Below, in pieces: positions 247 through 64,000 of a stretch of DNA of 64,000 nt. Position numbers and translations under genes: made by a program. Origin of the DNA: Bilabrum cf. latius (Eukaryota); NCBI GenBank assembly GCA_965178125.1, contig OZ237744.1, positions 434,001-498,000 of the forward strand. The letters run 5' to 3'. The stretch's first letter is position 1; each line of letters opens with the position of its first letter. A model generated the notes under the pieces. It had not been told where the DNA came from. It was given only the letters and a program-made list of their open reading frames with translations, and did no database searches.

Positions 247-2384
247 ATGCGGATAGCATCGACCCTGATTGCAAGTCTGAGTGCCGTGTGCGCCTTCGCT
301 GCCTGTGGTAGCAAGCAGAGCGGGTAAGGAGAAGAGCGGGTATCATTATGCTTTCGGATCCATCCAATGTTCATACGCGCCTTGGCGTACCTAAACCAAA
401 CACCGCGGGATTTTGCAGTCCAACAGACAATCCTATTGCTACCATGTACGGAAATACTACCTTCCCATGGACGTCGAACGTGAGAAATACCTAGCAGTCC
501 TTTTGTATACACCCCTCCCCACCGTGCAGCCGCACCGAGAAATGTTGGCTCGGTACTCCCTCCCGAATTTGCATTGCAGATGGTCAATTTTTCGTGCGTT
601 TATAACATCAAGGACTACCAGGACGCCAACGATTAGTCGGATGACAGCGCCATTGCAAAAGCACTCAGCGACGCCTCCAAGAACTCGGGTGGTGGCGTTG
701 TCTACCTTCCAGCCGGCAAGTACGAAGTATCTGACAACATTATGATGCCATCTAATGTAGTGGTAAGTTTGCATCGAAGTGTTGGCAACGGATACGCGTG
801 GATTCCTAGCTGTCACAGCTATTGGTTTACGCATCGGCATTGACGGCAGAAACGGCACGTAAGGCTTTCTTTGATCATAACGTTTTGTTATCACCTGATG
901 CAGATTCGAGGAGAGCCGACTTCAGACCCAGCGAAGCACGGGACCAGTCCTGGCAAGCTGGATCCGAAGGCTACGATCGCTTGCCCAGACAGGAAGCACC
1001 TCGGCTTCTTGAACGCGGATCCCGGGGCCAAGAACATCGGGATCGTAAATCTGAACCTCGATGGGTGTGCCATCATGCTCTGGCCAGGCCTCAAATCGAG
1101 CGCGAAGCCCACACAGCTCAAGGACTACTGGTACGAGGCGACAGACGTGGAAGGCCTCGGCTCCAACAAGGTCGTGCTCGGCAACAAGGTCTCGAACGTG
1201 GTGTTCGGGTATCCCGATCCGGACACGACATCAGGCAACCAATGGCCGTGGCGATTCAGCACCGCCATCGCCGTGTACACGCAGCTCAACTCGCTCGTCG
1301 CCAACAACCTGGTGCCGGAGGCGAGCAGTAGCGCCAAGGTCACCGTCTCGTTCAGCGGCACCGAGTTCAAGAACATCGAGTTCCCGTATGATAACAGGTA
1401 CGGCATTGATGCCGGAAGACGTGAGGGGAGACGGAGTTGCTGACCTGTCGAATTGATTCGCGCGGCCCGAAGGATACTCCGCTTGCTCGAGTCACGGTCG
1501 CTGCCTGCTGCCAACCGGCTCTCCTTTCTACCTCGCCATCATGTATTTTCCGGCGCAGTGCTGCTCGGTGGGGCCATCGGCCACTACGAGGTGAGCCATG
1601 TATGGAGGATAGCCTCCACGGTCCAATCAGTCTCTGCAATAGGCTGATTGCATGGGCCCTCGTAGCGAGCAACTGCCAGTGTGATTGTTCCCATCACTAT
1701 GCATCATTTTGAATTGTTCTCACCCTTCGCTCCGCATTTATTCCGTTGCTGATCCTGCAGGGCACCAAGTGCAAAAAGGTCTCCTCGAACGCGAACCTGA
1801 CGCCTGACTGCGCCAAGTGGTTCTTCCCCATCGGCGTGTCTGTCCGCGACAACTTCGTGTACATGAATGGGCGCGTGGGCATCCAGTGGGCGGGCGGCTG
1901 CGCCTCAAAGTTGGAGGGTGGAGAGCAGCCCGGCTGCGGTACGCAGGTCTACAACAACCACGTCGAAGTAAAGAAGGACAGCATGTGCTACTCTGTTGAC
2001 GGCAAGAACCTGGCAAAGGGGTCTGCGACCAACGAGAACAGGGGTTACGATCAGGGCGGGTACGGTTCCAATGTCACGGCCAACACGGGCCGCATCAACC
2101 GGCAAAAGGTGCAGGGCGGGTACTTGACCACCGACGGCGAGGGCGTGCTTCACCAGGCCAGCAGCAACTCTGACATGATGTACACGCTCTGGAACGAGAA
2201 CAACCTGGAGGGCGGCTCATCCGGCTACATGCTCGCATACAAGCTGCAAGACCCTTCCCATAACGTGATCACGAGCAACCAGGTCATCTCGAGTGAGAAC
2301 ATTGGCTGCCTGGCCGGGAACGGCGGCAACTGCGGGAAAGAGAACGAGTGCAAGGACAATCATCCCAAGTGCGTCGGGTTCTGA
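247..2384 (+). CDS. Secreted pectin-lyase-fold (right-handed beta-helix) carbohydrate-active protein, 6 exons
   Basis: Phase-consistent exons 247-323, 419-479, 580-762, 904-1420, 1559-1590 and 1761-2384 with GT..CAG introns. Signal peptide MRIASTLIASLSAVCAFAA. Pectate_lyase_3-like N-terminus (VYNIKDY..DDSAIAKAL..GGGVVYLPAGKYEV). One in-frame TAG at 634-636; ends TGA. Confidence 0.75.
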
Positions 2385-2693
2385 GCAGCTCACGAGCTAG
2401 CTCGCGGGGGACCGCATGTGTCGTCTTTCCCTCCTCCATCAAGTTCTTCCCACCGCTGCCGCCGATGTGCACTTGCATTACTTGCGTTGGAAATGGGGCA
2501 GTCTTGGCACATGCATTGGGGCACACAATCTGTGGCCTTGCATGATGCGAATTCCCCCTTCGCCGGCGTGTACTGAATTCGAATTCAATTTTGTATGCAT
2601 TCATATTCGGGGCTTGTATTCTCGTGATGATTTCCACCCCAGCGCCACACTATTGCATATCGATCGGAGCGACTCGGAGGCATATTTGGTGGA

Positions 2694-5600
2694 ATGCGAA
2701 GAGTCCACACGAAGATCAGCAATATGTTGTCAGTTGCGGCAGCGATACTGTTGTTACTGCATACAGTTGATGCAAATAGCGGTCCGCCGCCTATGCCAAA
2801 TTCGACGTGTGATGTCCCGGAAGGCAGTCCACCGATTGACTGGCACGCGAATGTGGAGCGAAAGATGCTGCTCTTCTCAGATGATGACGGTTCCATCAAG
2901 TCCGATGCACGCCCAGCTATTGGAAACGGATTCTTTGCAACATAGGTGAGGCGCGCCAGTTTAACGCGTTGGTGAGGCCACTAGCTCAACGCGTGGACAA
3001 TGCTTATCCTACAATTTCTACTCTGCTCATGCTCGCAGGTCTCGAGCGGAGACTTGTTCGTGTCTGGGCTGTTCAATGGGTACCTGACCAAAGATCCCAG
3101 CCATCATGCCAGACTGCCTTCGTTCGCGAACATAATGGTCGTGGGCGGATCGTTCGACAAGGCCGGCCGCTCCGGAGCTGCCTTGAACCTGCAGAATGCA
3201 TCCTACATGCGGCGCATGGTGATTCCATTCGACGAGGCGTGCTCACCTGGCTCTAAGCAGAGTTGCACGGGAACTGAAAAGGACGGGGTTGTCGTAGAGC
3301 AGAGGTGGTACGCCCATCGAACCCGGCCGTCGCTTTTGGTGCATGAAATCGAAGCCCTGGCTCCATCAACGTCGGTAAACCCGTCGCAACCACCGAGACA
3401 AGCCCAGGCCACGGCAGCCCGTGCCCCCTTTGCCGTTATAGTCGCCCGACGTATCCCGTCTCCGCCTTCCTCCGACGTGGATCTACAGGAGATGACCCCT
3501 CCGGCGGGTCTCGCGCTCCAGCTGCAGGGAGGACAGAACCTTGTACCAGAGACCAACAGCACGCCGCACACTTCCGCTGTTCTCTTCTACGACGATCTTC
3601 CAGGTGTGATTGAGGTTTCACAGGCTCCGGGTGACTACGGAAATGCCTTCACTACAGTCCTTGCCGGCGTGCGCACGTCGCTGGAGACCAACGGCAGTGT
3701 GCCTGACATTGCCGAGGCTCTCCTGCAAGACAGAAAGAATGCAGTTCAGGCACAGAAGGAAAAAGGTATTGGGACCTTGCGAGCGGAGCACGAGGCGGCG
3801 TGGGCTTAGCTCTGGCAGTCCGGTCTGGAGGTCAGTGGACGCACCGACGTGGATGCAGCTGCTCGGCAGAGCCTCTACTCTCTCCTCTCTTCGGCAAGGT
3901 CCGACCGTGCGTACGGCCTGTCTCCGGGTGGCCTGAGCACGGACGGCTACCATGCACACGTGAGAATGTATCGCTCTACTTTGTTGAACCCAGCAATGTT
4001 GTGTGCTAGATCCGGCGCCTGCATGCTAAGCACATGGCACATGCAACTGTGCCTATGTCTTTCTCTGGTATTCGGCGTGTGTGCTGTAACCACCTTACAT
4101 TCATCCGTACATATCTTGTTGTCGCAGACCTTTTGGGACCAGGAGACCTGGATGTATCCAACGCTGGCGCTTCTCCAGCCCGAAATTGCTGCGAGCCTGC
4201 TGCAGTACCGCAGGGCCAGGCTGCAAGGAGCCTACGAGAAGGCGAGGACCTACCAGAACGGGTCGTTTCCCGGGTACTACGGGGCGATGTTTCCATGGGA
4301 AAGCGGCTTCACAGGTGTCGAGGTTTGCCCCTCGTGGGCTAGAACTGGCCACAAGGAGATCCACATCACTGGCGACATTGCCCTGGCTGTGTGGCAATAT
4401 CACAGGCTGACCAACGGCACAGAACAGTAGTGGCTGGAGGATGTTGCCTGGCCCATTTTGAATGGAACGGCGTCCTTCTGGGTGTCTCGCGCATCTTCTA
4501 AGCCATCCTCCTCCTCGTCACCATCCGTGCAGCTGGATGGTATGCCTGTGCGAGGGCCCGGTGCGGGCCGAGACTTGGATGCGTTTCTCGCCGGAGAGGG
4601 AGTGGAGGCAGACGCAGCTTCATCTGCGGATAACTCAGGACCGCTCCACATAAACGGTGTCATTCCTCCAGATGAGTTCCATTTAGGCGACGACAGTGTG
4701 TACACGAACGCGGTGGCGCGCCTGAACCTCCGTTTCGCGGTCAGTGCAGCTGAGGCCTTGGGCCACGGGAACGAGCCGCTTGTCGCCACCTGGCGAGACG
4801 CGGAGCCAAGGATCGTGATGCTATTCAACGAATCGAGCAAGGTGCATCCCGAATTTGCGCAATACAAAGGGGATTAGATCAAGCAAGCCGACGTTATTCT
4901 GCTCGGGTATCCGCTCGGCCTCGCCACCGAACCATTTGGAAACGTCACGGCAGAGAGTAGACAGGCGGACCTCAGCTACTACGACCCCAGGACGAGTCCA
5001 AAAGGGCCTGCGATGACCTGGGGTATGGTCGCCCTCGCGCAGGTGGAGCTTGGCATGATTCAGGAGGCAGAGTACAACCTGAACAGGAGTTTCTAGCTCA
5101 ACACGCGAGCTCCATTCTGCACGTGGACGGAGACGCCTTCAGGAGGCTGCCCCGATTTCCTTACCGGCGCAGGCGGGTTTCTGCAAGGGGTGACCTTTGG
5201 GTACCCACGGCTTCGAATCGCGGATGGCCACCTCGAGCTCAGGCCGGTGCTGCTCCCCGGCTCTGACAAGATGGTCATTCGCGGCGCGCACTACCTTGGG
5301 AGCGTACTTGATCTGACTGTTGCGAGGAGTGGCAGTGAGACCCAACTGCAGGTCGGTGTGCGGGCAACACCAACGCTCGTGCCTGTCCGAGCGAGTCATC
5401 CGCGTGCATCGGATAGTCTTCTGGCAGCTTCTAGTTCAGACGAGGTTGTGGCCAATAAGGCTGGGTCTGACGTGTCAGTGGCGCGTGCTAGGGCAGCATG
5501 TGGACTCCATTCTGGGCAGAGGCTCGATGATCTGGACGACGGTCTGCTCAGGTGCGTAGGAGCTGCTGCATCAGGTAGCCGCAGTCTGGCGGCGCAGCCC

Positions 5601-5732
5601 GTGGCGCAGCTGTGCGTGGTAGACTCGCGGGGCCAGATTCATCCCTTAACCGCTGGAGGGCCATCAGTCAGCGTAGAATGCCCGCCGCCCACCGCCGACG
5701 CGCCAGCGATACTGATCCAAGCTTGTCAATGA
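2694..5732 (+). CDS. Glycoside hydrolase family 65 (PGGHG / acid trehalase-like), 3 exons
   Basis: Exons 2694-2945, 3039-3959 and 4128-5732. Signal peptide. GH65 motifs IGNGFFAT, GLSPGGLS..YHAHTFWDQETWMYP, GAMFPWES, EIHITGDIA, VIPPDEFH, IKQADVILLGYP, GPAMTW, FLTGAGGFLQ. In-frame TAGs at 2943, 3807, 4428, 4875 and 5094; ends TGA. Confidence 0.9.
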
Positions 5733-5866: not shown

Positions 5867-8800
5867 TCACCCTTGGACATCTTCGCCGGGTTGGCCGACA
5901 CTGGCGGTTTCCACCATCTCTTGTGACCGCTCTTGCACGTCACCTTGCCGCCCGAAGCCTTCATCTTCAGCGACGGCTTGAGGCACGTTTGCACCGGCAG
6001 CGGCCGGCCTCTGCGGGCTCAAGCCACTCACAGCGGGGGCAGACCCCCAAGCTGCGCGCTATCCTCCACTGCGACTACCAGCCTAGTGGTTCATGCTGCT
6101 GTGCGGAGCCCTGCCCTGCCGGCGCTGGTGATCAGCAGGCCTCAGTGAACCAGACAGTGGCCCGCCAAACTGCGCAGTGCTGCGGTCGCCTCCCGAGGCA
6201 AGGCTGGCGGGGAGCGGGGGGACTCCCCTGCTGCTGCCCGCATTCGACCCCGAGCTCGGCGTGGCAGTACTGGCAGTGCCACGCGCCAAGCCTGCAAGCG
6301 GTGTTCCAATACGGACAGGGGAACCGACCGCCCAGTCCACATCACCGAGCGGAGTCTCCGGGTTGACCTGCAGTCCTTCCTTCCCGTCGTTATCAGATGC
6401 ATCACCGTCAGAATCACTTCGTGAGTCCTTGCCTTGCCGTGGCGATGAGGGCTGGGTGACCGGAGCAGGCATCCGCTGCTGCTTCCCGCGCCTGTTCCTT
6501 TTTGAAGGGTGGAACTCTGAGCAGAGGAACTCGATGTACTCCATGGCAGCGTCAACAGTAGGCCACTCCGTCAGTGGCACCCAGTGGTGGGAACCTGGCG
6601 GTAGCTGGGAGGAGGCAATGCCTTGACCAAACATGACCGAGCTGCTGGGCCTTGTGGACGAGCCAGGAGCACCAGAGGACTGGTCAGTGGGCCTCATGGC
6701 ATCCCGAGTTCGTGCTACACTGGCTTCCATACCGTCCGTGTCGTCACCATCGTCGTCGCTGATGCTACCTTCGTGCTGACCCGCGTCCTCTGAAGCAACC
6801 CACACGGAGTGCCCGCGCTCCGCGAGGTGGTCCAGCAGGTTCTCGGGCATGTCGACCGCAGCCACCGTCGTGCGCGATTGCAGAAGCTGGTCCAGAGCAG
6901 CAGCCACGAGCTCCGAGGCGCTGAAATCAATGCTAGAAATGTCGCTGCAGTCCAGAATCAGGTACCGCCTGCCACCTTGCATGCTCGCAGAGGAGTGGCT
7001 TGCGGGTGATGGAGACTCGGCACCTGTCCGGGTTCCGCCTCTTCGACGCTTCCTTTTCTTTATGTGAGTCGAGTCGAAGGAGTGCTCCACTGAGCCTGCT
7101 GCCTTGCCAGCATTTCCAAAAAACAAGGTGCCCTTTAGGGCCACGCTGCGGATGCGACGAACCACAGAGCTCGAGATGCCGGCAGCCCGAGCCCGAGCCC
7201 TCACAGCCTGCTCCACATGGGTGAGACGGCTGGCGACGTCTTGGCTAGCGGCCTGGAAGATGAAAGCAGCGCATGCCATTGCAATGCCGATAAGAATGCC
7301 CTATTCGAAGCCCAGAATGAGCATCGACAGGGCAATAACCCACACCACAATTCGCTCGGGCCAACTGAGGGTGTTCCATGGAGCGACAAATCCCTCGTAC
7401 ACCAGCTCGCCGCCGATATGGAGCAACAGGCAGCCTGCCAGCGGACGCGGCACCACGTCGGTGAGCGAACTGCCCAGCCAGATTCCGACGATGCTAGCAA
7501 CAGTTATCATAAGTCCTGCCCAGCGCTGTAGCCACATTCGAGGATTCCCAGCGCGCGCGCACTGCGATATAACCAGATCGCAGGCCACGAAGGAACCACA
7601 TCCGCGGGCCTTGCCGGGTTGATCTTGGGACGAGCTGTTTCGTTCTAGTGAGCTCGCACTGCCGGATGTCATAACTGTATCATCCATGTTAGATCTCCCA
7701 GTCGTGCCTGTCATCACGCTCACGCTGCCATCGTGCAACAGTGACTCGTCCAGCGATTGCCCTAGTCGAGCCGAGCGGCTGCGTCTACCCGCACCGCAGC
7801 ATGTGCACCACGCGCAGCAATCGCACCCATCTTCCCACGCAGTCTGCAACTGCTTCGCACCACCACGCCCAACGGAATCTCCGTCCTCCCATGCGCTGCT
7901 GGAGAGCCCTTTGATCCGCTCGACGACGCTATCCCGGTCAACCCTCTCGTTCCCGTCGTAAGCAAGGGCAGTTGCCGGGTCCATGTGGGAGCCACCCCTC
8001 GCCATGCGCGGGGTGCCCAGCCCTAGGTCCAGAGACACGACGGAAGACATAGTGCCTGTACGGTTCCTGCCCCGGCGCTGCCTCACGTAGGGCGATTCGC
8101 CAGCAACAGCAGCCGCACCACCGGTACCGTACATGCTCCCACCTCCGTCCACGAGGTAACTTGCACCGCGCGTAGTATTACCGTGCTTTCTGGCCATATT
8201 TGGGCTGCCAGCAGCATAGCCGGACCCCACAGCAACACCAGACGAAGCTGCATTCAAGTCAGGTGTGCGCATCGACTGTAGAAGCTCCTCAGGATTGATT
8301 TCATTGTGGTCAGCCTGCTGATACCCGCCCGCGCCCTAGCCCCCGTCCAGCTCGCCGACTCCAGTCGACGGCGGTGGCGTCAGGAGCTTGCCACCGCCAT
8401 CAGCATCGCCAGTCTTGCCAGCACCACGCATGGCTAGCCCACGGGACAGCTTCTATTTGACGATACCGATCGTCTCTGCCCCGCTACCCTTTCCTCCGTG
8501 CTCTCGCAAGATGTCAGGGAAGCCCTCCCCACCCCCGCACTTGTAGAACAAGGCGCTATTCGAGTAGCACAAGTAGTTTTGCACCCCACCCACTGCACCA
8601 GACAGGAGATTTGACCACCCGTGAGCCAAGAGCTCCTTGTTGATGTCGCATTTCTGGCCCGACGTGAGGCTCAGACTCGGGACGTTGATCGGCACATGCG
8701 CGAGCGAGAACACGACCAGGCCGATGAGAACGTGGGTGGAGCCCCAAATGGCACCCCAGCGCACGTTAGTGAAATCGAAGAGCCGCCACAAATCCAAGGG

Positions 8801-9791
8801 GTCGTAAGCAGGCCGCTCTCCGCCTGAAGCAGCTGTCGTGTCATTGAACGGCGTACCCCCTAAGGTCCAGCCAGCGTCGGAAGCCTCGCTCAGGCCCACC
8901 CCAGACACCAAGACAACAGGAAAGAACAAGGCCGGGATGGCGATAAAGTATAAGGGCGCCAGAAGGGGAGACTGTATATACTGGGCGAGGACTCGCAGGA
9001 ATATGGCCAGTCCCACGGCCACCGCTGTCAGGGGGAGGCAGGGCATCGTGAAGAACCGACGGATGGTGCTCCACTCGAGCTTCCACTCGACCGCGCTTGC
9101 TACCTGCAGCCCACTCGTGAGGAGAAACACACCGATCCCTGCGACGGCCCCGATCAAGAGAGGCTTTGGGATGTAGTTAACCACATGGCCGAGTCTGAAG
9201 AGGCCGAGCAGCAGGAACGCCAGGCCCACGAGTACCGTCGCCAGGGATTGGGCTACCAGAATGGTGGGAAACGCCTCCGCGGGGTCATCTGTGCCCATCT
9301 GCTGCAGCACCGAGGTGGCCAAGGCGCCCAGGAAGGGCACATTCTCTATCATCATCGCTGCCGTCGACGATCTGAAATCTGAGGTTAGCGAATGTACTAC
9401 TTGGCCTATACCAGTGCTCAGAAACATAAGCTCAACTCCAATATTTTGATACTCGGGGTAACTTGCCGAAAAAGGCCACAGGATGACACCTGCGAATCGG
9501 CCAGCAAGGAGGCAGAATGCGATGAGGACAAGATCGCGCCTCTCCTATTCCAACTTCGGCGTACAGTCTGGGAGCAAAACACTCACCATATGGAAGACAA
9601 TCTAGTAGGATGGTCAAGAAGAGGATGATAAAAGCCGGGCATTCCTGAAGGACAGCCAGGAAGCACGAGCATCCGCAAGCAGCGCTCGGACCCTATCCCG
9701 CCGATCCAGTTTCGCCTGACCTGTCATGTAGTCTGACAAAATGTACAGCTAGATCTGCTTTCGAGTTCGCTGTTCGACGGTTTACTTCCAT
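5867..9791 (-). CDS. SulP/SLC26-family anion (sulfate) transporter with C-terminal STAS domain
   Basis: ORF pieces 8453-9427, 7301-8272 and 6083-7279 are in one frame and separated only by TAG. One intron at about 9491-9585. Multiple TM helices; DINKELLAHGWSNLLSG motif; STAS features LKGTLFFGNA and LILDCSDISSIDFSA. ATG at 9791, TGA at 5867. Confidence 0.85.
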
Positions 9792-10280: not shown

Positions 10281-13200
10281 TTAGTCTGCAAGGTTTCGCC
10301 CCGAGGCAGCCCTGCCTCCAGCAGCACCAGAGCTCCCATGACGCGCCGCACTCCGCACGCTCGCTCCCCTGGACCCTCCCCCTCCCCCTACCCCTACTAA
10401 TTGCTGCTCCCCTCGACCCCTGCCATTGGTAGGCGCAGCGGCAGCTGAACCTGCGCTACGCTTGCCTTGTCCAAAGATTGCGCTTCCTGGAGGCTGTGCA
10501 ACTGAGAGCATGCCGGTCCACACGAAATAAGCAATCAAAAGCCCGCCCAATCCAAGGCTGAGCAGCCAGAACATCAGGTAGCCATACTCAAACTAAAGCT
10601 CGGGCATTTTGACGAAGTTCATGCCGTACACGCCAGCGAGGATCTGTGCTGGAGCAGTCACAGTGGTCACGAACGTGAGCACGTAGCTGTTTCTCTCCCT
10701 CGCAAACGACTGGAGCTGCTAAAAGCCATCACTGAGCCTGCGAACGCCGGCGTTTATGCCCCTCAAGTCTCCCAACACGTTCTGCAAATCATCCCGCGCA
10801 TCCGCGAGCTCTGCCTGCATGCCCCTCCAGAAGTTCCTGGCCAAGCTCTGCACCAGCACGGCGTTGTCATTGCCCGGTCCATCCCCACCGAACCGTGCCA
10901 TGAGCCGCCCCCCGCCACTGCCATGGCTGGGTCCTGCCCACCCAACGTTGTCGAGGGCCTCATTTCCATACCGATGGCTTGCTGCAGCTGACACTGGCAC
11001 GCCGGGGATGGACCCTGCGTGCGTGGTTTGACCGTGCTGCACGTCGTGCCAACCGGCTGCGCCACGCTGCTCCAACTCGCCTTGATACCCCCCACCACCC
11101 TGAAGCGGATGCTGGGAACCCACGAAGCTTTGATTATCCGTATCGTCCCTGCCACCCGCACCAACCGGATGCAGTCTGGTGGTGGCTCGCCCTCCTTGAC
11201 TTGCAAGGCCCCGCATTATGACGGTACCCGCCCTAGTTCTCGGAGGGCTGCCACCTCGACGATGCCCCGACTGCGAGCCACCCAGCTAAATCGCCTGGGC
11301 TAGCTCCTCGAGATCACCGAAGAGGGGCTCCAGTTGCTCTGCGAAGGATGTGGATGTCTTGCCTAGCTGCAACAAGTGGGCTGATTGCGTGGATGTTGCC
11401 TAGGCGCCCGGCTTGGTCAGCTGATACTCCACCGCGGCTTCCCACTCCTTTAGCGTGTCACGCACAAGAAACGAGTGCTCCAGCACTTGATCCAATAGGT
11501 ACAGCGAGAGTTCCCTGACTCGCATCTCCAGAAATCCCGACATCACGCCCTTGCACGTCAGCTGCTCGGCAAGCTGCCTGAGCGGCCCAAATGCGGCGCA
11601 TAGGTCCTTTAGTTCCCCAGGTCCCATTTGCGACAGCTCCGCGCAGTACGGGCGTCGGCTGTCGTGAGAAACCGTACGCTCCCACCCATGGCCAAAGGCC
11701 TTATCGTACCCTTGCTGGAGCTCGTCGTCGCCTTGGGGCCGCAGTGTGAGCAGGGCAGTCTGCGGAATGCTGAAGATAGACAGCTGCTCGAAGAGTATCT
11801 CTACAGGGGCGGAATACAGGTCTGCTTCTCCGACTAGCTCCATCGTATTGGCAGCGGTAATTCCACTCAATGTGAAACCACGGGACCCGTGGGGCTCTGC
11901 CAGTGACCCGCTCGCTGCGGAGGCAGGCTGGCCTGCTTGCGGTGTAGATGCCAGCCCGGCCGACACGATTCGACGACTGCTCACTGCGCGGAGTCCTGCT
12001 GCCCCATGCTCCTACTAGGACTCGCTGCAACAGCCATTTAAGCCAGAGCACGAGCCGATACAGCCTGAGCAACAGCCTGACGCCTGCCAGCAGCAGCAGC
12101 CAGCGACTAAAGCTTGCGGGTCCACACCGTCCGCGCCGCGTCCTGATGGACCAGCAAAGGGCGAGCGCTCCGTTGGAAGCGAGGTGCAATGCAAAAGGAA
12201 ATGACCAACATGCGTAGGCGTGCTAGATGCTTGCTCTTCAGCAAGCCGATCCGACCCGAAACTTGCGTCCCATGCAGATGCTGCATCCACGGCGTCATTA
12301 CCGTGGGGCCCTTCTCCACCCACGGTGTGCGCTCGTTGCATATTGCTGACACCATCTGAATGTAAAAACTAGCCAGCCACACCCTAGCCGTTGGCATCAT
12401 ACGATCGCTGGGGCCCTCCGTGGGAGATGGATCTGTCCACGCCCGGGAGTGGCTAAGCCCCTACCTGGCCCACTACACCATGATCGTACCCTGGTCCGCC
12501 CTCGTGAAACGGCGGTTGCTCCCGAGTGCGATCTGGGAGCGAGAAAGCGGTCCGTATAGGTGGTGCCTATACATCACTCGGCCCGCCTATAAGCTTACGA
12601 GTCCCGCCGCTGGCAGACTCCATCTCGTCGTCGCTCGAGCTGGCGCCAGCGGGGTCATCCACGATGCTGTCCGCGCGCCGCAGGACATCCGGACCAACTG
12701 TCCCTAGTGCCCGAATTTCAAGCCTGGGACTTTCTGGCTGAGAGTTTGGACCTACAGGCTGAGACTCTGAGGCATTGCTGGCGCTTGGAGGCGGCTACGT
12801 CTCCGCTGCAGCTTCTGACGGTAGCCTCGCTTTGGAAGCTGCACCTGCCTGTACAGTCTGCGCTGCCTGCCGTCCGTGGTAACCTCGAGCAGTGCTTCCT
12901 GCGGGGTCATCTACGTTTCCCGGGTGCCCTTCCAGAACCATTCGATTGCTTGGATCATCAAGGTCAGGCGTGGTGGCTGGGGCAGAGGGTGGCATGGCGG
13001 GTATGACTCTATCTGGCCCCAGGTGGTGCTGGGCTAGACCAGGGCGCTGCCTGCGCGTGCCACACAGGTGCTCGGGACGCGTGAGAAGCCCTCGAGACAA
13101 GGGAACACACTCGTGCTTGGCTCTCTGAAACACAGCGGCATCTTTTAGTAGCTCAAGCGGGATGCCGCTCCAAGCAGCAAGAGCACGCAAGACGGCCGGG

Positions 13201-53687: not shown

Positions 53688-56600
53688 ATGCCTAGGCAGA
53701 AAGCGAGGAGCAGGGGGCGTAAGAAGGGAGGAGGCAAGGGTGGTCGATAGAGGGACGACCGCTGGGACCAGGATGACGGCAAGGAATTGGTGTTCGAGAA
53801 CGCATCGTTCCGTCAGTTCTACAAGGATCTGGGAATCCTGTCGGAGGAAGAAGCAGATGCTATGGTAGAGCAGATGAAGAAACAACTAGCTACAAATTTC
53901 CGTTTGAGTGCGTTACACCCAGACTTGGATGCGCTGACTCACCGCATGGAGACGGACTTTAAGGAGTTCGAGGTTCCGGTCGAGGCTCTGGATTTCAGAT
54001 CGCCATTCCACCAGCAGCTGAAGGAATTTCAGGATCGATGCGACCAAGAGGATGAGGCGGCCAAGAAAGAGGGGAGGGCGAGAAAAGCCATGGCAGAGCT
54101 TGCGACAGAGTGCGGCCTGTCGGGCAAGACATCGACCATCCCGCTGAACCGTATGAAGTGGTACACGCCCGCGCCCGCCTATCAGTTTGAATCCTCTAGG
54201 CGCAGTCTTCGCAGAACCCCGGAGCTTCGCGAGCTGCACAAGATTCTGGTAGATGAGACCGAGGCTGGCAACATCACGCGGCAAGAAGCAGTGAGCATGC
54301 TGCCGCCCCTGCTGCTCGACGTGCAGCCTCACCATCGGGTGCTCGACATGTGTGCCTCACCAGGCAGCAAGACCTCCCAGCTGCTCGAAGCGCTGCACGA
54401 ATGCGAAAAGGAAGGCAAGATTCCCACCGGTGTGGTGGTGGCGAACGACAACAACCCCAAGCGGGCCTACATGCTCGTCCACCAGTGCAAACGCATGACT
54501 GCGCAGTCGCTGGTCGTGTCCGTGCAGGACGGTCAGCAGATCCCGGCACCCGGCCAGGTCACGGCTAGGCACTTCAAAGCATGCTAGTCATCGCTCGAGC
54601 GTCACGCCGCCTTCCTGGCCAAGCAGGGTGAGGCTGACGGGGCGCCTTCCTCCTCCTCTACCGCAGCCTCGTCGGCAAGCTCTTCGTCTTCGTCTTCTTC
54701 TTCGGCAGCGGCGACCGCCGGAGCGCTGACGGTGCCCACGGTGGAGGGCGCGGCTGACTACGGCGATTCGGCGGAGACGTTCGACCGAGTGCTAGCTGAC
54801 GTGCCCTGCAGCGGGGACGGGACGTTCCGCAAGAACGTTGACCTGTGGCTCAAGTGGACCCCCTCGTCCTCCATCAGCCTGCACAACGTCCAGGTGCAGA
54901 TCGCGGCCAGGGGGTTGCAGCTGCTCCGCACGGGTGGTCGCATGGTGTACTCGACCTGCAGCATGAGTCCTTACGAGGACGAGGCTGTGCTCGGTGCGCT
55001 GCTGCGCTGGGGTAAGGGCAGCGTCCGCCTGGTGAACGTGGAGGAGCGTCTGCCTGGGTTTAAGCGCAGGCCCGGCGTGTCGTCTTGGACCGTGATGGAC
55101 CGGCACTGCAACGTGTTCTCCAGCTTTGACGACATCCCGAAGTGCATGAAGGAAGTGGACAAGGAGCGCACGGCGTTTCGCGAGAAGCTCAGGACGCGCG
55201 CCTTCGAGCTCATGAAGGAGCGGGGTGTCGATCCCGACGGCGTGCACGATGGAGTCAGGCTCGAGGACGATGACCCGAGGGCAATTGCGATGCGGGACGC
55301 AAAGATCGAGCTGCTCGCTGCCTCGGGCGAGAAGCCCCCCCGCTTCCCGCTCATCAACAGCAACGAGCAGACGACAAAGGCTCGCCCGTGGAGCATCGAG
55401 GGCTGCCAGGGTGCCCCTAGCAGGATCGTCGGCAAGTACCTCAGCCACATCAGCAGCATTCCCGACTCGCTCTTCCCCCCCACGGCGGAAGAGGCAGCGG
55501 AGATGCACCTGGAGAGGAGCTTCCGCGTGGTCCCGCAGGACAACGACACTGGAGGTTTCTTCGTCGCTCTGCTGGAGCGGACGGGGCCACTGCCCGACGA
55601 CTTGCCCGTGCTGCAGAATAATAGGCAGCACCTGCACCAGCACACAGGTACCCCCAAGTCTGAGGAAGATAAGGACGCTGCCGTCTCAGCTGGCGCCAAG
55701 CGAGCGCGCGAGGAAGCCGGGGCGGCCGGTGCGGCCTCGAAGAGCTCGGGCCCTGCCAGTGGTGCCGGGGCGTCATCGTCTGCACCCGCCGGTGCGGGCG
55801 CCGCTGCCTCTCCGGATGGCGAGCCAGCCGATAAGAAGCCGCGGGTAGATGGATCCTCTGCCGATGCTGCTGGATCGTCGTCTGCTGCCGAGACGTCGGA
55901 TGGCGCCGCCCCGATGCAAGATGACGAGGGTGATAGTGACGAGGCGGCAGCTGAGAAGGGCGGTGAAGCTGCGAAAGGCAAGCCCAAGAAGGCCAAGTCA
56001 GAGGACGAGCGCCGAGGCAAGAAGGGTGGCAAGAAGCAGCCGAGGGTCTTCACGGATGAAGACATCGCGGCACTACCTCGCCGGCCTCGTTTCGGCAGCG
56101 TCATCCCACTTGCGTGGTTCAAGAGCGACGAGGCCAGGCATTCCCTGATCCAGACCATCCCGCAGGAGATCTATGATTCGTTGCACCGCAGCTGGGGCTT
56201 CGACCGGGAGCTGCTTCCCAGGGAGCAGCTGGTGGTGAGGAACGGAAACCTGGGTAGCATCAGCTGGGTCACGCCCGAGTCGGCCAGGCTGGTGGTGCAG
56301 CCCATGGAGACGAGCGTGGCTCTTACGCTTGAGAGATCGGAGCGGCTGGGCCACGATCTCAAGCACATGCGCATGCAGGTGCTGGGCGCGATCCGGAGGT
56401 AGACCAACATCGTAATTTGCGGCGTGCAGGTGTTCGAGACCAAGAGCACCATCATCGAGCCCATCGCTGATATGTCCTCGCAGGAGGACGCGAACCCCGA
56501 GTCGGTGCGCAAGCTGCTCGATGGTGTAGACTACCGCGTGGTCAGCTCCGGGGCGCACCTGATCGAGCCCGCGATGCGAGCGTCGAGCGGGAGCGGGGAG

Positions 56601-57020
56601 GGTCCACGGTGCCTGCGGCTATCTGCGGACGACTACGCCGAGGTGGTGGGGCGGGGCACCGGTTGCGAGTTCGGTCCTGACGACAAGGGGCTCAGCGAGC
56701 ACGGGAGAGATGCGGTCAAGAAGGCTGCACGAGGTTTCGGGATCATCGCGCTGGATCCTTCCATCCCCAACGCGGACGGGAAGCCCACCCTGCAGGACGG
56801 TCCAGGGCATGAGTCAGCCAACCGGACTGCCCTTCTCCTCCAGGTGCGCACCTCGATTCCTTGCCAGGTTCGCGAGGGGCAGATGGTAAGGGTGATGGTC
56901 CCTGGGGCCGTGGTGGAGCACCAGGGCATCAACCTGAGCATCCTTGCGAGGCTTCGGGGCAAGGGGTCTGCTGCACAGGCGGGAGCTGGAGATGTTGCGT
57001 CCGGTGGGGCTGGGAACTGA
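53688..57020 (+). CDS. NSUN2: tRNA (cytosine-C5)-methyltransferase NSUN2/Trm4
   Basis: GNITRQEAVSMLPPLLLDVQPHHRVLDMCASPGSKT; FDRVLADVPCSGDGT; MVYSTCS; DTGGFFVA. TAG at 53748, 54585 and 56400; ends TGA. Confidence 0.93.
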
Positions 57021-57854: not shown

Positions 57855-58679
57855 TCAGACTGCATGAGTGTCCAGGAACTCATCATCAATGCCCAGACTG
57901 TTGTCAGCCCCCTCGTCCTCTGCGTCACTCCCTACCGCGGAATCGGCCGAGTCGAGTGTCTCCAAGCCGTGCTCAAAGGCAAACTCGGTCGTTGGAACAA
58001 GCCCCACAACCGCCAAGGCTCGTCCAAGGCTTGCCACAGTCGGCATCTCCTGGGTTGCCTTGCGCGAGTGGATCAGCTTGCCGTTGAGGTAGACCTCGTA
58101 CGCGCCTGACTGCGAGAGGTAGCTCGAGGCCTACCCCAGAGCAAAATAGATCCCGATCCCGTACATTCTGTTTTCCTGCAGCCAATTGCAGGCTTGCGAT
58201 GCAGGGTGCGATGCATCGAGCCCAATCGAATTCATCACGGTCGGCCCTGCAAAGCTGGCCGCCATCATGACGTAAGACGAAATCTAAGTTGCCTGTGCCG
58301 CGAAGCGCTTGACTGCACCAACGTCATACTCTTTCATAAACACGTCCTGGGTCGCAAGGCCCGGAAAACCAGCTTCAAGTGCTGCCCTATCTCTCTAAAA
58401 CTGTCCCTTGAACGCGCAGGCTGTGCATATCCTAAATTCCAGTGTAACCCCGCCTTCGCTTGCAGGATGCACGTCTTCACTAGTTTGGGTTTCGGCAGTA
58501 CCCCTGCTTGCAACCCCTTCTTCTTGTCGCTGCGGCTGAGCTGGAGTACTCGCTGGGCCAGCCGTCTCGTTGCGGTTCAGTAGTTTCTGAAGAGCGGGAC
58601 GAAACGCGCCAAGCAGTCCCACGGCTGCAACAAACAAAATTAGGCTAAAAGATCCTGGAGCGGTTTTGCCGGCTGCCAT
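57855..58679 (-). CDS. Selenoprotein-T-like (Rdx family) protein, cysteine variant
   Basis: N-terminal hydrophobic leader; FRICTACAFKGQF (CxxC in place of CxxU); WLQENRMY..SGAYEVYLNGKLIHSRK..MP matches the SelT C-terminal pattern. TAG at 58395, 58284 and 58131; ends TGA. Confidence 0.8.
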
Positions 58680-58911
58680 GGCTTGTAGAGTGAGCTGCAG
58701 GAGCACCTCGAGTTTGGTGCAGCATTGATGACGAGCGCTCGCTTTTGCGGGTCATTTTTCGTCTTTTTTGCCAGTGATTGGAAGGTTAGTGATGCGATCA
58801 CACTAATAATGCCAAGCATGTTCCGTTTTGTGCGTTGAGTATCAGTTCAACCGTTATCTTTTGCCTGTATTGGTGCCAGCTAGACAAATATTGCAGTTGC
58901 TGCTACACTCC

Positions 58912-59376: not shown

Positions 59377-59474
59377 CTGAACGATTGTGAATGCGTGGAT
59401 CCAGCTACTAGTATGCCTTCATTCATCCCCAAGCTACACCCCAACGTTATCAACCATTTTTCAAGTGAACCGCA

Positions 59475-62400
59475 TCACTGCATCGCAAACGCAATCCAAG
59501 ACACGTTTACGTGTCCGCCCGAGGAGGCCGAGCTTGCTCGAGCATCTGGTTGGACTCGCGCTGCACCGTGCATGAACACCCAGTCGCTGCTGGCCGACGA
59601 TGCTGCCTCCATACCATGTATCAAATCGCCCCCCTTGGCGGTTGGAAGCAGCTCCATTGGGGCGTGGACCGCGAGGGCACCATCCACCCGCACGACCAGG
59701 GACGCGTTCGTCGGCATCGCGGCGATCGGGAGCGAAAATCGGAACAGAACGCCGTTTCCGAGGCTACCGCCGCCGCTGCTAGCTGCTGCTGCTGCTGCTG
59801 CTCCGGCTTCCGTAGACACGAGCTGCCAGCCCGACCAAGTCCCGGAGGACTCGGCGCAGATGGCGGCGGCAGGGGACCGCATGCACCACCCGTGCCCAGG
59901 CTCAGCCAGGTCGGAAGCGAGCATGGACGGTGCAACATCGTAGCCCTCTGTCGTGGTGAAGAACCCGGCCAGCCGGATGAATGCCTGTAGCGACCATGCG
60001 TGCCTGTGGGTGCACATGACGGGGGCATAGGGCCAGTTGGACACACCCGGTGTCTTGCTCAGATAGGAGCTCACCGAATCCGCCGAGGACCAAATGCCCG
60101 CCCAGTACTCGGGGTAGGCATTCGCCTGGTACGCCAGCGTGTTCTTCAAGGCCTCATCCAAAGCCAGCCTTGACATGCGTACAGCCTGCGCCGGGATGGC
60201 GGCCCCGGGTTTCCTGCGGTAATCGAGCCGGAGCGCTCTGCTCTGGCGCGCAAGGCCCGCGATCAGGGGACCGTTCAGCGACTGCCACACCCCGCCATTC
60301 TCCTGCACCCCGGGAGTCGAGCGGCACAGGGGCGACGGCTCGCTCATTTCAGGGGCTCCGATCGGAGAAGGTGCCCTGAGTGCGTCCAGCGAGTCCATCA
60401 TCTGATCCAGCTGCACCAGTGCCGAGTCGTCTTGCAGGCCTGATCCGACCTACCCGCCGATGCTCGATCTGGACCCGTTGAAATAGTGCGTGACCACCTC
60501 CCCCATGAGAGCCCAGGTAGTGGGGGTGGCCACCATGTAGTCCGCCCCCCTCCATCCCAAGGACTCGTTGGCGGGACCCAACCACGCCCTCATGTAATAG
60601 CCCTTGTCTGGCAGCCACGCCCACTCCTGCATCGCCTGCCTCTACTGAGCCGCAAACGCGCGCGCTGCGTCGGCCCTCTACCGCCATTCGGGCGATATGG
60701 GTGCTCCTGCATTCGCCGCCGCTTCGAGCATATCGGCGTAGCGCGTCATGGAGTAGGAGGCAGTGGCAGCGTTGAGCACGCTCTCACCGTGCTCCACGAC
60801 CTCCCAGAACCGAGTCGTGTTGTAGGTGGCGTTCGCCTTGCACTGGGTGTACGTGTCTGACCAGTCTGAGGTCTGCAGGCGCATGATTCCGTGCTGACCA
60901 ACCGACACGTTTCTGATAGAATACTGCACTGCAGTCCACAGCGCGTCTTCCACGGTCCACGCTGGGGTCCGGCGTGGTGGTGCAATAGCACCTGCCTGGA
61001 CTGCGACACTAGCATGCACCTTGGTGCTGATTTCCTATGGATCCAACAGGCCGTCGGACGGATCGTAGAACTTGGGGATCGTCTCCTGCAGCACGCTGAA
61101 GTCGCGCCTCGCTAGAGTGATGTCTGCAGCCAGCATGGGCAGCCAGAGCTCCTGGTCGCTCGGAATCAGGTTGAACGTCATGAGAAGGCCCTGCGACGTC
61201 AAAGCGTACGGACTTAGGAACCGCTGGTGCCCGAGCGGCGACGGCCGACTGGGGTTCTGCAGCTGCTTCAGAGACAGCCGGAGGATGCTACGAGCCGATG
61301 AAGGGGCAGACAGAGCGAGAGGCATGGCGTGCTGCAGCGGGTCTCGCATGGCGCCCTGAAAGCCCGCAACGTACCTGTACTGCGTGCCCTGATCCAGGAG
61401 CGTCTCGTTCCAGAACGTGGACAGGGTGCGAGCACCGAGCACGTATCCAGAGTGCCACTCAATCTCCCTGCCCAGCCAGCCAAACCGTCCCTGCAGCCGA
61501 TCGCTTGCGCCAGCCAAACCGGTGAGTGCGACGCTCTCGCGGAGCGTTTGCTCCCGGGCTGCTCGCTTCGCGGCGGCTGATGGAAGCCCACCAGCAGCCG
61601 CGTTGGGCTGGCCCGGCTGCTTTGCCCCGTTGAATGCCACTGTAGCGGCACGGATCACATCTTGGGCCCTGGTCACGAGCTGATCGGACGAGCCCGTGCC
61701 GTTCACGTAGCCCCACAGGAACGCTGCGGAAGCGGTACCTGCAGCAGCTGGACCCATTAAACCAACTTGTAAGCGTAGTACTCGTCTGTTGACGGTGCAC
61801 GCCAATGCTGTCGGCACCCGCTGCCCGGAGGTGATGTCCTTACGCACTCCAACTTCGAGTGGGGGCGGCTTGCATAGAAAGCTAGTTCCGTTTGGCGATC
61901 CGCCAGATCCTGGTAGAGCTACCTGAAACACGGCCGGCGGGTGCTCGTCGTAGAGGGATCCCCCTCTCGGTGGATTGGGGAATCGGTTGGTCCACGGTGA
62001 ACGGAAGCTCCTCTGCCAAAGTAGCCCCTGCATTGCCTCGAACAGCGCGAGCTCGGTGCCGTTGAACGGAACCCACTGCCGTGAGAGCAGGATGAGGGGA
62101 TCATTTTGAGTTGGACCGGTTCCTTGAAGACGGAGGGCACCGCCAGCAGCATGCGCACCGCTGCCAGATGCACGCGCCGCAGTCCCAAGATACCCGGTCG
62201 TGTTGTAGTGCGTCGCACCAAGCAGCACGGGCTGCCCGAATACAGAATCTGAGACATTTGGATACGTGTGCTGCGCTGCCTAGTAGACGGCATCCATGTG
62301 CCGGATCAGTGCTCCGCTCGAAACCTCTACGAAGAGCTCAACTTGCCGACTCCGCGCGGCAGGGGTAGGCATCTACACTACGGTAGCATCGACGAATATC

Positions 62401-63077
62401 CCGATCGATGGCTCGTTACCAGGGGTTGGTACGAAGGTTACGTTGGCATCAAGCAGCATGGTTTTGTTAGTGTCCATCCAGCCGGTGATGCTGATTGTAG
62501 AGAACGCGTACCCAAACCGCATACTACGGTTGAATGAGTCGTCTTGCGGACTGGATTGAAGACCTGCCTCGCACCAGGTGCTTCCACTGCGGGTGATTTC
62601 TGCAAACTCCCCGCACATGCCTGCGTGCAAATCGGAATCAGCAGTTGCACTTTGCCAGCTCAAGGTCACCTGTCCGAAACCTTGCTGCTCGTGGGCAAAC
62701 TTGCCGATCCTGTCGATGCTGCTGATTAGATGCGGTCCACCCTCGTCAGAACGGACTTCCATACCACCGAACTAGTTCGCAACAAGGACCAGGCGCTCGT
62801 TCGCTACCTGGAACCACTGCTCGTTCGGAAGCTTGACTAGTTCGTTGATACTCGACAACGAAGCTTTTCTTCGAGGTACGATAGACGTGGGCCCGAGCTG
62901 CACACCATGATGCGAATAAATAGGAGCATATGAGTCATCATCAAGGGCCCAATCACCGAAGGATCCGCCACCAAACGAGTAGTTCGAATCTTGGGCAACC
63001 GCGAATGCACGGACAGATCCTGACACAGCAGCAAATACCACAAAGACGGTTGAAATTGTGCAATACTGATAAATCAT
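59475..63077 (-). CDS. Secreted GH94/six-hairpin glycosidase- or phosphorylase-like protein (1,200 aa), intronless
   Basis: Six fragments in one frame joined by 7 TAGs (62772, 62373, 62280, 61035, 60678, 60642, 60450). Signal peptide; RDPLQHAMPL; PSDQELWL; GQHGIMRLQTSDWSD; ESVLN; ENGGVW; WAGIWSSADS. The family call is inference from motif resemblance. Confidence 0.65.
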
Positions 63078-63209
63078 GTTTTTAATCAGCAGAAGTAGTC
63101 GGCCCAATCAGGAATACTAGGTAGGCTATGCAACGAAGTGCAGTTTTGAGCATAAGACCATGTAATATCATGTAGGTATATATACGCATTTATGACCCTT
63201 TCGACAAGC

Positions 63210-63281: not shown

Positions 63282-63595
63282 ATTTTTTGTTATCGACTGC
63301 TCGCTGCTACTCGTTAGTTTTTTCTTTCCTTGCGCCGTCCCGCTTCCCCTTATTCCTGTGCATTCACCGCACTCTCTCGCCTCGGGGCTGTGTGCGTGGG
63401 GGCCGCGCTCGCGATGGCCGGGTGTTGCGCGGCGGGTCCGGCGCTGCAGGCGGAGGTATTAGTAGCCTGTGCCGTCGAATTGTAGTACCAACTGCAGAGC
63501 ACATTAGCATGCTTCAAGGATACTTACGTACTGCACTGCCGTCACTGTTTGGTTCAAGCAGCATCATTTATAAATAACATATAGGGAAGCAGCCC

Positions 63596-64000
63596 TCACG
63601 AGTACTCCTCGTCGATCTCGACCCGCACAGGCGACAAGTCCCAGTCCACCACGTCTTCTCCATGCGAGCTACCGTCCGGTCCTTGCTCTGCAGCCGCCGC
63701 AGACACCTCCGGGGGCACTCCGAACTGCCCCACGCTCGCTGCGTGCCTGCTTCGCAAGGAGTCCTCCGGCCCGGCATGGCCGCGGCCCTCCTAAACCTTG
63801 CTGTCGTGCCCTGACTCTCCCCGCGCTCTGCGGCTGTCACCTTCGGCCAATGCTCGGTCTCGGTCGTCGGTCCCCGCAGATGCACCCGCCGCTTCCAGCG
63901 CATTCCACAGCGCCACGTACCTTGCAGCAAGCGATTTCTCTAGCCCTGACAGCGCCAGCACCCCAGATCGGACACGGGCACGACTCCGCGCCAGCTCCAC
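63596..64000 (-). CDS. 3' end of a gene entering from the right (partial, unknown product)
   Basis: Open frame from the window edge through a TAG at 63791 to TGA at 63596. Confidence 0.5.

What the first reader, a model, noticed from the sequence alone, without database searches (positions are those of the whole stretch)
247..64000. Non-standard nuclear genetic code: UAG reassigned to glutamine across the whole window
Seen: more than 70 in-frame TAGs interrupt clearly conserved genes (BRCA2, NSUN2, VPS24, CCDC93, DCAF8-like, GH65, CorA, SulP, SelT-like) with no frameshifts, and no gene model ends in TAG. From recalled family consensus, TAG sits where homologs have Gln: GH65 AWA*LW vs PGGHG AWAQLW (3807); DCAF8-like F*HEGRAHKL vs AQHKGASHKL (17521); VPS24 W*RE vs plant WQR (30222) and M*RD vs IQRE (30085). 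Inference: TAG is a regular Gln codon in this genome. Stop-codon reassignment is rare outside ciliates and a few protist groups, so this may be an undescribed code for this lineage.
Basis: partly seen in the sequence, partly recalled or inferred. Interest (0 to 1): 0.95.

Follow-up and report, generated by a model that had tools for sequence, protein, structure and literature searches.

The report
Nuclear code reading UAG as glutamine
This stretch of a GC-rich microbial eukaryote's chromosome is full of genes that only make sense if the stop codon UAG is translated, most likely as glutamine, while UAA and UGA still end proteins, which is a rare but already known kind of genetic-code variant.

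Summary
In 15 stop-to-stop reading frames (16,875 codons) there are 114 in-frame TAG. There are no internal TAA or TGA: the 3 TAA and 12 TGA are all terminal. Reading TAG as sense raises ORFs of at least 1000 aa from 0 to 8; reading TAA as sense adds none. These frames carry GH65, SulP, CorA, DCAF8-like, Snf7/VPS24, BRCA2, CCDC93, NSUN2 and Rdx domains.

Contigs of two runs carry six canonical intron joints, so they derive from RNA. They keep the TAGs with 0 differing letters, which argues against editing, splicing-out and assembly error.

Glutamine is the best reading. Of 28 TAG-versus-homologue residue pairs, 8 are Q, giving a posterior of 0.999 for Q. A column method also ranks Q first. TAG matches Q as often as ordinary CAG/CAA do (31%).

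A close relative and a 57%-identical metagenome contig also carry in-frame TAGs.

No tRNA-Gln(CUA), eRF1 or peptide evidence could be obtained, and the organism is not placed. The code type (UAG=Gln, UAA/UGA stop) is already known from Iotanema and some ciliates. The aphelid Amoeboaphelidium is unlikely (40% GC there, and TAA is sense).

The parts
580..2384 (+). Pectate-lyase-like gene with 3 mapped introns (762-902, 1421-1558, 1589-1758). The spliced ORF is 451 aa, has 1 in-frame TAG (codon 19) and ends in TGA.
   Evidence: Intron joints; spliced translation; Pfam PF12708 on exon 1.
2976..5732 (+). GH65 (PGGHG-like) glycosidase frame with 5 TAG. The one at 2982-2984 lies in the intron 2944-3036. 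Four are exonic (3807, 4428, 4875, 5094). There is a second intron at 3960-4127. The frame ends in TGA.
5867..9613 (-). SulP/STAS anion transporter frame with 7 TAG. One lies in the intron 9487-9583. The frame ends in TGA.
10281..14543 (-). EF-hand + CorA-like Mg2+ channel frame of 1420 aa with 16 TAG. It ends in TAA.
14311..16899 (+). Frame of 862 aa with no known family and 6 TAG. It ends in TAA.
   Evidence: RNA-type contig over 14565-16522.
17110..20238 (+). DCAF8-like WD40 protein frame with 5 TAG. It ends in TGA.
23060..26170 (+). Frame of 1036 aa with a P-loop motif, no Pfam or PHROG family and 12 TAG. It ends in TGA. All of its database relatives are fragments.
29392..30360 (-). VPS24/CHMP3 (Snf7) gene. 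There are 2 TAG in the main exon (one at 30085-30087) and further TAGs in upstream exon sequence (W-TAG-RE at 30222-30224). It ends in TGA. The upstream limit is approximate.
31265..40405 (-). BRCA2 frame of 3046 aa with tandem BRC-repeat units and an OB1 domain. It has 26 TAG and ends in TGA.
40732..42597 (-). CCDC93 frame with 1 TAG. It ends in TGA, 10 residues after the end of the alignment to human CCDC93.
43778..51700 (-). EF-hand protein frame of 2640 aa with 14 TAG. It ends in TAA.
51457..53424 (-). Frame of 655 aa with no known family and 9 TAG. It ends in TGA.
53640..57020 (+). NSUN2-like RNA m5C methyltransferase frame with 3 TAG. It ends in TGA.
57855..58751 (-). Rdx-family (SelT-like) frame with 3 TAG. 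It ends in TGA.
59475..63107 (-). Frame of 1210 aa with a weak GH94-superfamily match and 7 TAG. It ends in TGA.

Best explanation
The window is nuclear DNA of a GC-rich (59%), gene-dense, intron-poor eukaryote. Its translation system reads UAG as an ordinary sense codon, most probably glutamine, and UAA and UGA remain the terminators. This is the pattern of NCBI table 15 (table number recalled). TAG makes up about 14% of Gln codons here: 114 of 796 TAG+CAG+CAA.

Shown:
- In-frame TAGs are frequent and specific to TAG.
- They lie inside conserved domains.
- They persist in spliced transcripts.
- They are shared with relatives.
- They align with Gln and Gln-like residues as ordinary Gln codons do.

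Inferred, not shown: decoding by a tRNA-Gln with a CUA anticodon (or efficient near-cognate tRNA-Gln), together with an eRF1 that no longer recognises UAG but still recognises UAA and UGA, as proposed for Iotanema spirale (PMC9161772 passage on the GTS motif).
For: ORF lengths: there are 0 ORFs of at least 1000 aa under the standard code, 8 with TAG as sense, and 0 with TAA as sense.

Stop-codon counts: there are 114 in-frame TAG against 0 internal TAA/TGA in 16,875 codons. Off-frame, TAA (131) and TGA (631) are common. If TAA were used like CAA relative to CAG (181:501), about 41 in-frame TAA would be expected.

Homology continues past the TAGs: GH65 to residue 801 with the last TAG at 707; CHMP3; DCAF8; NSUN2; CCDC93 to residue 611 of 621.

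RNA: contigs of runs X5 and X6, from two studies, carry six GT..AG / CT..AC joints that are absent from run X1. No run shows a differing letter. Of the 39 in-frame TAGs in 500-20400, 19 lie in the listed spliced-run pieces and 2 lie in mapped introns.

Amino acid:
- Window TAG against L001 gives Q,R,S,Q,H,H,T,E,M,Q. L001 TAG against the window gives K,Q,E,Q,W,E.
- The 12 PDB pairs give Q,N,Q,L,V,A,H,Q,R,K,R,T.
- Together Q is 8 of 28, with posterior 0.999 for Q and R next at 5e-4. Each of the three subsets puts Q first.
- Ordinary Gln codons in the same window-L001 alignment match Q in 31% of 26 pairs. TAG matches Q in 5 of 16, also 31%.
- Over 14 TAG columns in two families the summed mean BLOSUM62 score is Q 5.84, E 3.15, S -0.27. 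The same method names the right residue for all 56 sense codons tested.

Relatives:
- Standard-code gene calls of a relative with 91-96% identity end where the window has CAG, AAG and CAG.
- Its fragments of the 1036-aa gene end exactly at window TAGs 445, 781 and 928.
- All 53 database relatives of that gene are fragments of at most 465 aa.
- L001 has 7 in-frame TAG by eye in the frame-2 translation; 6 of them lie in the 609-codon alignment to the window.
Against: No tRNA-Gln(CUA) lies in the window; the only tRNAs are Gly(TCC) and Glu(CTC). No whole genome was available, so the decoding machinery is unseen. There is no peptide evidence.

Most TAG columns are variable. Only 3 of 12 PDB pairs are Q. 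In the GH65 family Q is only 8-12% of residues at three TAG columns. In the column method the lead of Q over E is modest (5.84 against 3.15).

CAG, GAG, AAG, TGG and TCG are single-base neighbours of TAG, so part of the Q/E/K/W/S signal could reflect mutation paths rather than meaning.

The RNA nature of runs X5 and X6 is inferred from intron joints. The tool itself guesses 'RNA? (probably DNA)' for X5.

The 16 TAGs of the CorA-like gene are not in any listed RNA piece.

The controls are favoured by alignments built with the true residue, while TAG was X.

That no gene ends in TAG is partly circular.
Confidence: 0.85

Rival explanations
1. UAG is ambiguous. It is read as Gln inside genes but also terminates some genes, depending on context, as reported for UAR or UGA in Condylostoma, Parduczia, karyorelictids and Blastocrithidia.
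For: Nothing in the window demands it. It cannot be excluded either, because the frames were defined by reading through TAG. In the DCAF8-like frame three TAGs (aa 829, 888, 934) lie beyond the last homology to human DCAF8 at about aa 702, so one of them could in principle be the real end.
Against: Where the C-terminus can be checked, the frame ends at TGA. CCDC93 aligns to residue 611 of 621. The GH65 alignment runs 94 residues past the last TAG. All 15 frames end in TGA or TAA, and a further in-frame TGA or TAA follows 1 to 231 codons (median 26) downstream.
Confidence: 0.08
2. UAG is a sense codon for another amino acid, such as Glu, Arg, Lys or His, as UAG is Leu in the rhizarian exLh, Ser in Scotinosphaera and Glu in some ciliates.
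For: E is second in the column method (3.15 against 5.84 for Q). E accounts for 3 of 28 pairs, and so does R. GAG and AAG are single-base neighbours of TAG.
Against: The posterior over 28 pairs is Q 0.999, R 5e-4, E 8e-5. Q ranks first in all three independent subsets. The two TAG columns with a clearly dominant residue that is also seen at conserved motifs are Q: 'VEAQL' with Q in 8 of 11, and 'LQQASNL' with Q in 5 of 10. No Leu, Ser or Tyr signal appears.
Confidence: 0.04
3. The TAGs are not translated at all. They are assembly or sequencing errors, pseudogene lesions, edited to CAG in the RNA, or removed by splicing.
For: Two of the 39 TAGs in 500-20400 do lie in mapped introns. The metagenome relative L001 also has one in-frame TGA and one in-frame TAA, as a decayed copy would.
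Against: Four runs show 0 differing letters. Spliced contigs retain 19 of the 39 TAGs. Lesions would hit TAA and TGA too, yet there are 0 internal ones in 16,875 codons against 114 TAG. Fifteen neighbouring genes, including core ones, cannot all be pseudogenes. The TAG positions are shared with a relative of 90-94% identity.
Confidence: 0.02

Closest known systems
Iotanema spirale (Fornicata) nuclear code: UAG=Gln with UAA and UGA as stops (PMC5304391, abstract and passages; PMC9161772, passages)
   Same: UAG alone is reassigned to Gln and UAA stays a terminator. UAG is a minority Gln codon: about 8% there (PMC5304391 passage) and about 14% here.
   Different: Iotanema is an anaerobic gut flagellate known from a transcriptome. 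Here we have a 59% GC, gene-dense genome that encodes BRCA2, CCDC93 and PGGHG-like proteins. Whether the two are related was not tested. The eRF1 GTS-motif change reported there could not be looked for here.
Ciliate UAG-only=Gln codes: Protocruzia tuzeti and two phyllopharyngean lineages (PMC11687900, discussion passages); NCBI table 15 (number recalled)
   Same: The codon table is the same.
   Different: Ciliate origin is unlikely but was not formally tested. That ciliate genomes are generally AT-rich is recalled, not taken from a call.
Amoeboaphelidium protococcarum (aphelid) code: TAG and TAA=Gln (PMC6299283 passage; PMC5304391 passage)
   Same: It is a non-ciliate protist, associated with algae, that reads TAG as Gln.
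   Different: TAA is reported as sense there; here there are 0 internal TAA in 16,875 codons. The Amoeboaphelidium genomes are 40.5% and 39.9% GC (PMC10608142, Table 1) against 59% here.
Other UAG-only reassignments: rhizarian exLh (Leu), Scotinosphaera (Ser) (PMC5304391; PMC11687900 passages)
   Same: UAG is uncoupled from UAA.
   Different: The amino acid differs. Leu and Ser score far below Gln here.

Membership tests
Nuclear code with UAG=Gln and UAA/UGA as stops (table-15 type) | Frequent in-frame UAG inside conserved protein-coding genes. | tested here: met
   There are 114 in 15 frames, and homology continues past them.
Nuclear code with UAG=Gln and UAA/UGA as stops (table-15 type) | UAG is present in mature mRNA, neither edited nor spliced out. 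| tested here: met
   Nineteen of the 39 TAGs in 500-20400 lie in listed pieces of contigs that carry intron joints, with 0 differing letters. Two of the 39 lie in introns and 18 are not in a listed piece. The RNA nature of the runs is inferred from the joints.
Nuclear code with UAG=Gln and UAA/UGA as stops (table-15 type) | UAG positions correspond to Gln in homologues. | tested here: met
   Q is 8 of 28 pairs with posterior 0.999. Q ranks first over 14 columns. This is statistical, from few genes, and not genome-wide.
Nuclear code with UAG=Gln and UAA/UGA as stops (table-15 type) | UAA and UGA are not used as sense codons. | tested here: met
   There are 0 internal TAA or TGA in 16,875 codons. 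Reading TAA as sense does not lengthen ORFs. Sequence downstream of the TAA stops looks non-coding, and the next stop follows within 23-32 codons.
Nuclear code with UAG=Gln and UAA/UGA as stops (table-15 type) | A tRNA-Gln with anticodon CUA. | not testable with these tools
   None is in the window, and no whole genome is held.
Nuclear code with UAG=Gln and UAA/UGA as stops (table-15 type) | An eRF1 altered so that UAG is not recognised. | not testable with these tools
   eRF1 is not in the window, and no genome is held.
UAR=Gln code (table-6 type: many ciliates, some ulvophytes, hexamitids, oxymonads, Amoeboaphelidium) | In-frame UAA is used as Gln alongside UAG. | tested here: not met
   There are 0 internal TAA, against about 41 expected from the CAA:CAG ratio.
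Programmed readthrough or site-specific recoding (Sec- or Pyl-like) | Rare, gene-specific sites that depend on a local signal. | tested here: not met
   There are 114 sites in 14 of the 15 frames counted, about 1 per 148 codons, and 3 more in the Rdx frame. No search for signals was made.

The most novel reading that the evidence does not exclude
This is an independent, so far undescribed origin of the UAG-only-to-Gln nuclear code in a GC-rich, non-ciliate, non-fornicate protist clade. The clade has at least three members: the window's organism, a relative of 91-96% identity, and a metagenome lineage 57% identical in one gene that also has in-frame TAGs. DNA and RNA-type data for the organism exist under several organism labels, so it may be a culturable or host-associated protist. 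In that case it would allow experiments on how a eukaryotic release factor tells UAG from UAA.
Probability: 0.4. Interest if true: 0.75.

Novelty: new member of a known kind. Interest (0 to 1): 0.6.

Why it matters
There are two practical consequences. Any annotation of this genome with the standard code will shatter its genes. The only database relatives of two genes here are fragments that end at TAG or at Gln positions. The organism's proteins are therefore effectively missing from protein databases.

There is also an evolutionary one. In the papers I read, codes that separate UAG from UAA are reported from only a few lineages (PMC5304391, PMC11687900). Each new case bears on how tRNA-Gln(CUA) and eRF1 specificity co-evolve. 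A case with a genome, transcript data and relatives would be a useful comparison.

Tried and rejected
- Whole genome: none is held. tRNA-Gln(CUA), eRF1 and 18S could therefore not be sought.
- Rfam on the window: only the two tRNAs.
- Earlier findings of this scan: nothing.
- Metagenome scan with the 1210-aa GH94-like protein: 26 pattern matches, none confirmed.
- 'Shorter' homologue search with the 3046-aa BRCA2 frame: none of 8000 candidates scored. The low-complexity words probably flooded it, and a search was wasted.
- Family alignment A1 was too divergent for the search for related loci. The single protein found nothing in genome contigs (86 pattern matches, 0 confirmed) or in viral contigs (4 matches, 0 confirmed).
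- PDB searches with SulP and the GH94-like protein: no hits.
- PHROGs on the 1036-aa protein: no family.
A different, standard-code CCDC93 ORF gave only CCDC93 clusters from animals and plants, which does not help placement.
- No RNA holder is listed on record for the window. RNA status was inferred from intron joints only.
- Aphelid origin was considered and set aside on GC content and TAA use.
- Literature searches turned up no paper describing a GC-rich non-ciliate lineage with UAG-only=Gln other than Iotanema. The library lacks most subscription journals (for example Karpov 2013 and the 2022 aphelid genome paper), and supplements were not opened.
- The fragment-end counts are suggestive only. 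In one search, 22 of 53 hits reach their C-end within 1 residue, and the stop falls on window TAG 4 times, Q 5, E 3 and other residues 10; the other 31 hits were dropped. The stop codon of those hits is unseen, and L001 shows that some are TGA or TAA.
Full report
**What is there.** The window is 59% GC throughout. Under the standard code no ORF reaches 1000 aa; the longest is 758 aa. If TAG alone is read as sense, eight ORFs exceed 1000 aa: 3046, 2640, 1420, 1248, 1210, 1126, 1042 and 1036 aa. Reading TAA as sense instead changes almost nothing. Reading TGA as sense lengthens frames unspecifically, as expected for the commonest stop triplet.

The long frames translated with TAG=X carry the following families:
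- GH65
- SulP+STAS
- CorA+EF-hand
- WD40, with human DCAF8 as the best PDB hit
- Snf7, matching CHMP3/Vps24
- seven matched BRCA2 repeats plus an OB1 domain
- CCDC93
- EF-hands
- RsmB/F, matching human NSUN2
- Rdx, SelT-like

Three long frames (862, 1036 and 655 aa) have no Pfam family.

**Counts.** In 15 stop-to-stop frames (16,875 codons) there are 114 in-frame TAG. The 3 TAA and 12 TGA are all terminal. In the other two frames of the same DNA, TAG, TAA and TGA occur 308, 131 and 631 times. So coding frames exclude TAA and TGA but tolerate TAG. If TAA were a Gln codon used in the CAA:CAG proportion (181:501), about 41 internal TAA would be expected; none is seen. After the three TAA ends the next in-frame stop comes within 23-32 codons, and codon usage there looks non-coding. 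I read this as UAG sense, with UAA and UGA as stops.

**Are the TAGs real and in the mRNA?** Four public runs were laid on 500-20400. Run X1 holds the stretch with 0 differences.

Contigs of X5 and X6, from two different studies, carry six joints with GT..AG ends, or CT..AC for the minus-strand gene. The joints are at 762-902, 1421-1558, 1589-1758, 2944-3036, 3960-4127 and 9487-9583, and X1 lacks them. I take these contigs to be cDNA-derived, although the tool's own guess for X5 is 'RNA? (probably DNA)'. No run shows any differing letter.

Of the 39 in-frame TAGs in this stretch:
- 19 lie in the listed pieces of X5/X6 contigs;
- 2 lie inside mapped introns;
- 18 are not in a listed piece. Sixteen of these are in the CorA-like gene. 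Only the longest pieces were listed.

This argues against assembly error, RNA editing and splicing-out for the covered sites.

**Which amino acid?** The nearest full-length homologues are distant. The best GH65 hit is 40% identical, and TAG sits mostly at variable columns, so single examples prove little. I used four lines of evidence.

(a) Twelve TAG positions align with a residue of a solved structure: Q,N (CHMP3); Q,L,V,A (PGGHG); H,Q (DCAF8); R (NSUN2); K (CCDC93); R (CorA); T (BRCA2). The pairs from NSUN2, CCDC93 and BRCA2 come from weakly aligned stretches.

(b) A metagenome contig, L001 (2751 nt, 55% GC), encodes a relative of the 1036-aa protein, 57% identical over 609 codons. It is itself interrupted by in-frame TAGs. 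Window TAGs face Q,R,S,Q,H,H,T,E,M,Q in L001. L001 TAGs face K,Q,E,Q,W,E in the window.

(c) With BLOSUM62-derived substitution probabilities, the 28 pairs give posterior 0.999 for Gln, with Arg next at 5e-4. Dropping the three weak pairs gives 0.9997. Each of the three subsets alone ranks Gln first. Q is 8 of the first 27 pairs, against a background of 4.3%, P=1.2e-5. In the same window-L001 alignment ordinary Gln codons face Q in 31% of 26 pairs, and TAG faces Q in 5 of 16, also 31%.

(d) A column method over 14 TAG sites in two families gives Q 5.84, E 3.15 and S -0.27. The same method names the true residue for all 56 sense codons tested.

There are three caveats. The controls benefit from alignments made with the true residue. 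The pairs are few and come from few genes. And Q, E, K, W and S codons are single-base neighbours of TAG, so mutation paths contribute to the signal. The two CAA pairs need two steps, and Tyr and Leu neighbours are absent.

**Relatives share the trait.** A search for shorter proteins found three fragments of 91-96% identity, all from one 42-kb contig. They are pieces of the same GH65 gene as cut by a standard-code gene caller. They end where the window has CAG (Q95), AAG (K254) and CAG (Q484).

For the 1036-aa protein, all 53 relatives among 1.84 billion representatives are fragments of at most 465 aa. Three fragments of 90-94% identity end exactly at window TAGs 445, 781 and 928.

Of the 22 hits (of 53) whose alignment reaches their C-terminus within one residue, the stop falls on a window TAG 4 times, on Q 5 times, on E 3 times and on other residues 10 times. 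The stop codons of these hits are unseen, so this is supporting evidence only.

**Mechanism.** Shown: UAG is read through in at least 15 genes. Inferred from known cases: a tRNA-Gln(CUA) or efficient near-cognate tRNA-Gln, plus an eRF1 that has lost UAG recognition (PMC9161772 passage on Iotanema). Neither could be examined. The window has only tRNA-Gly(TCC) and tRNA-Glu(CTC), and no genome is held.

**Comparison with known codes.** From abstracts and passages I read, UAG-only=Gln is described for Iotanema spirale (PMC5304391), and for Protocruzia tuzeti and two phyllopharyngean ciliate lineages (PMC11687900). Amoeboaphelidium protococcarum is reported to read both TAG and TAA as Gln (PMC6299283, PMC5304391), and its genomes are 40% GC (PMC10608142, Table 1); both points differ from this window.

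My literature searches found no other lineage. The library misses many subscription papers, and I opened no supplements.

The organism could not be placed. Its names in the run table are coded, and no close named homologue appeared.

**Verdict.** The reading 'UAG = sense, most likely Gln' is well supported, with confidence about 0.85 for the full statement. The kind of code is known. Whether this lineage is new to the literature remains open.

Noticed in passing
L001:239-262 (frame 2): The metagenome relative of the 1036-aa gene has, besides its in-frame TAGs, one in-frame TGA opposite window W438 (TGG) and one in-frame TAA opposite window R444 (AGG), both inside a conserved 'LPAWCDP' stretch. 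Other database fragments end at the same two places (P0158, P0179). This may be a decayed copy, a missed intron, or further recoding in that lineage.
   Followed up: partly
window 23060-26170 (+): The 1036-aa protein has a P-loop-like 'GAKGMGKSS' motif and no Pfam or PHROG family. Its only relatives (53) are fragments from assemblies and metagenomes, 24-94% identical, which suggests a lineage-restricted and perhaps multi-copy family.
   Followed up: partly
window 500-20400: About half of the contigs of runs X5 (31 of 59) and X6 (40 of 75) that lie on this stretch are only 90-95% identical to it. A relative of 91-96% protein identity also exists on a 42-kb contig. This could be a diverged second haplotype, a homeologue or a sister strain.
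   Followed up: no
window 16436-17099: Summed contig depth jumps to 707 (X5) and 1159 (X6), and many contigs break at 16467-16580. That stretch is a GCC-rich run coding for alanine/threonine/proline repeats in the 862-aa frame. It is probably a repeat shared by many transcripts.
   Followed up: no
window 34900-37900 (-): The BRCA2 frame holds about nine near-identical tandem units of about 70 aa, each with a BRC repeat ('GFQTGRNRPVRVSAEAQARARAMLASADGE...'). Pfam matches seven BRC stretches. None of the units contains a TAG.
   Followed up: no
window 57855-58751 (-): The Rdx-family (SelT-like) protein has 'CTAC' where selenoproteins of this family carry CxxU. It appears to be a Cys form, so TGA recoding is not needed here.
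   Followed up: no
window 30647-30717 (-) and 63210-63281 (+): tRNA-Gly(TCC) and tRNA-Glu(CTC) are the only RNA genes found. Neither can read UAG.
   Followed up: yes
window 26631-29323 (-): Two adjacent frames (433 aa with 1 TAG; 344 aa with none) have very high GC3 (0.88 and 0.75) and no Pfam family. They are possibly exons of one secreted protein.
   Followed up: no
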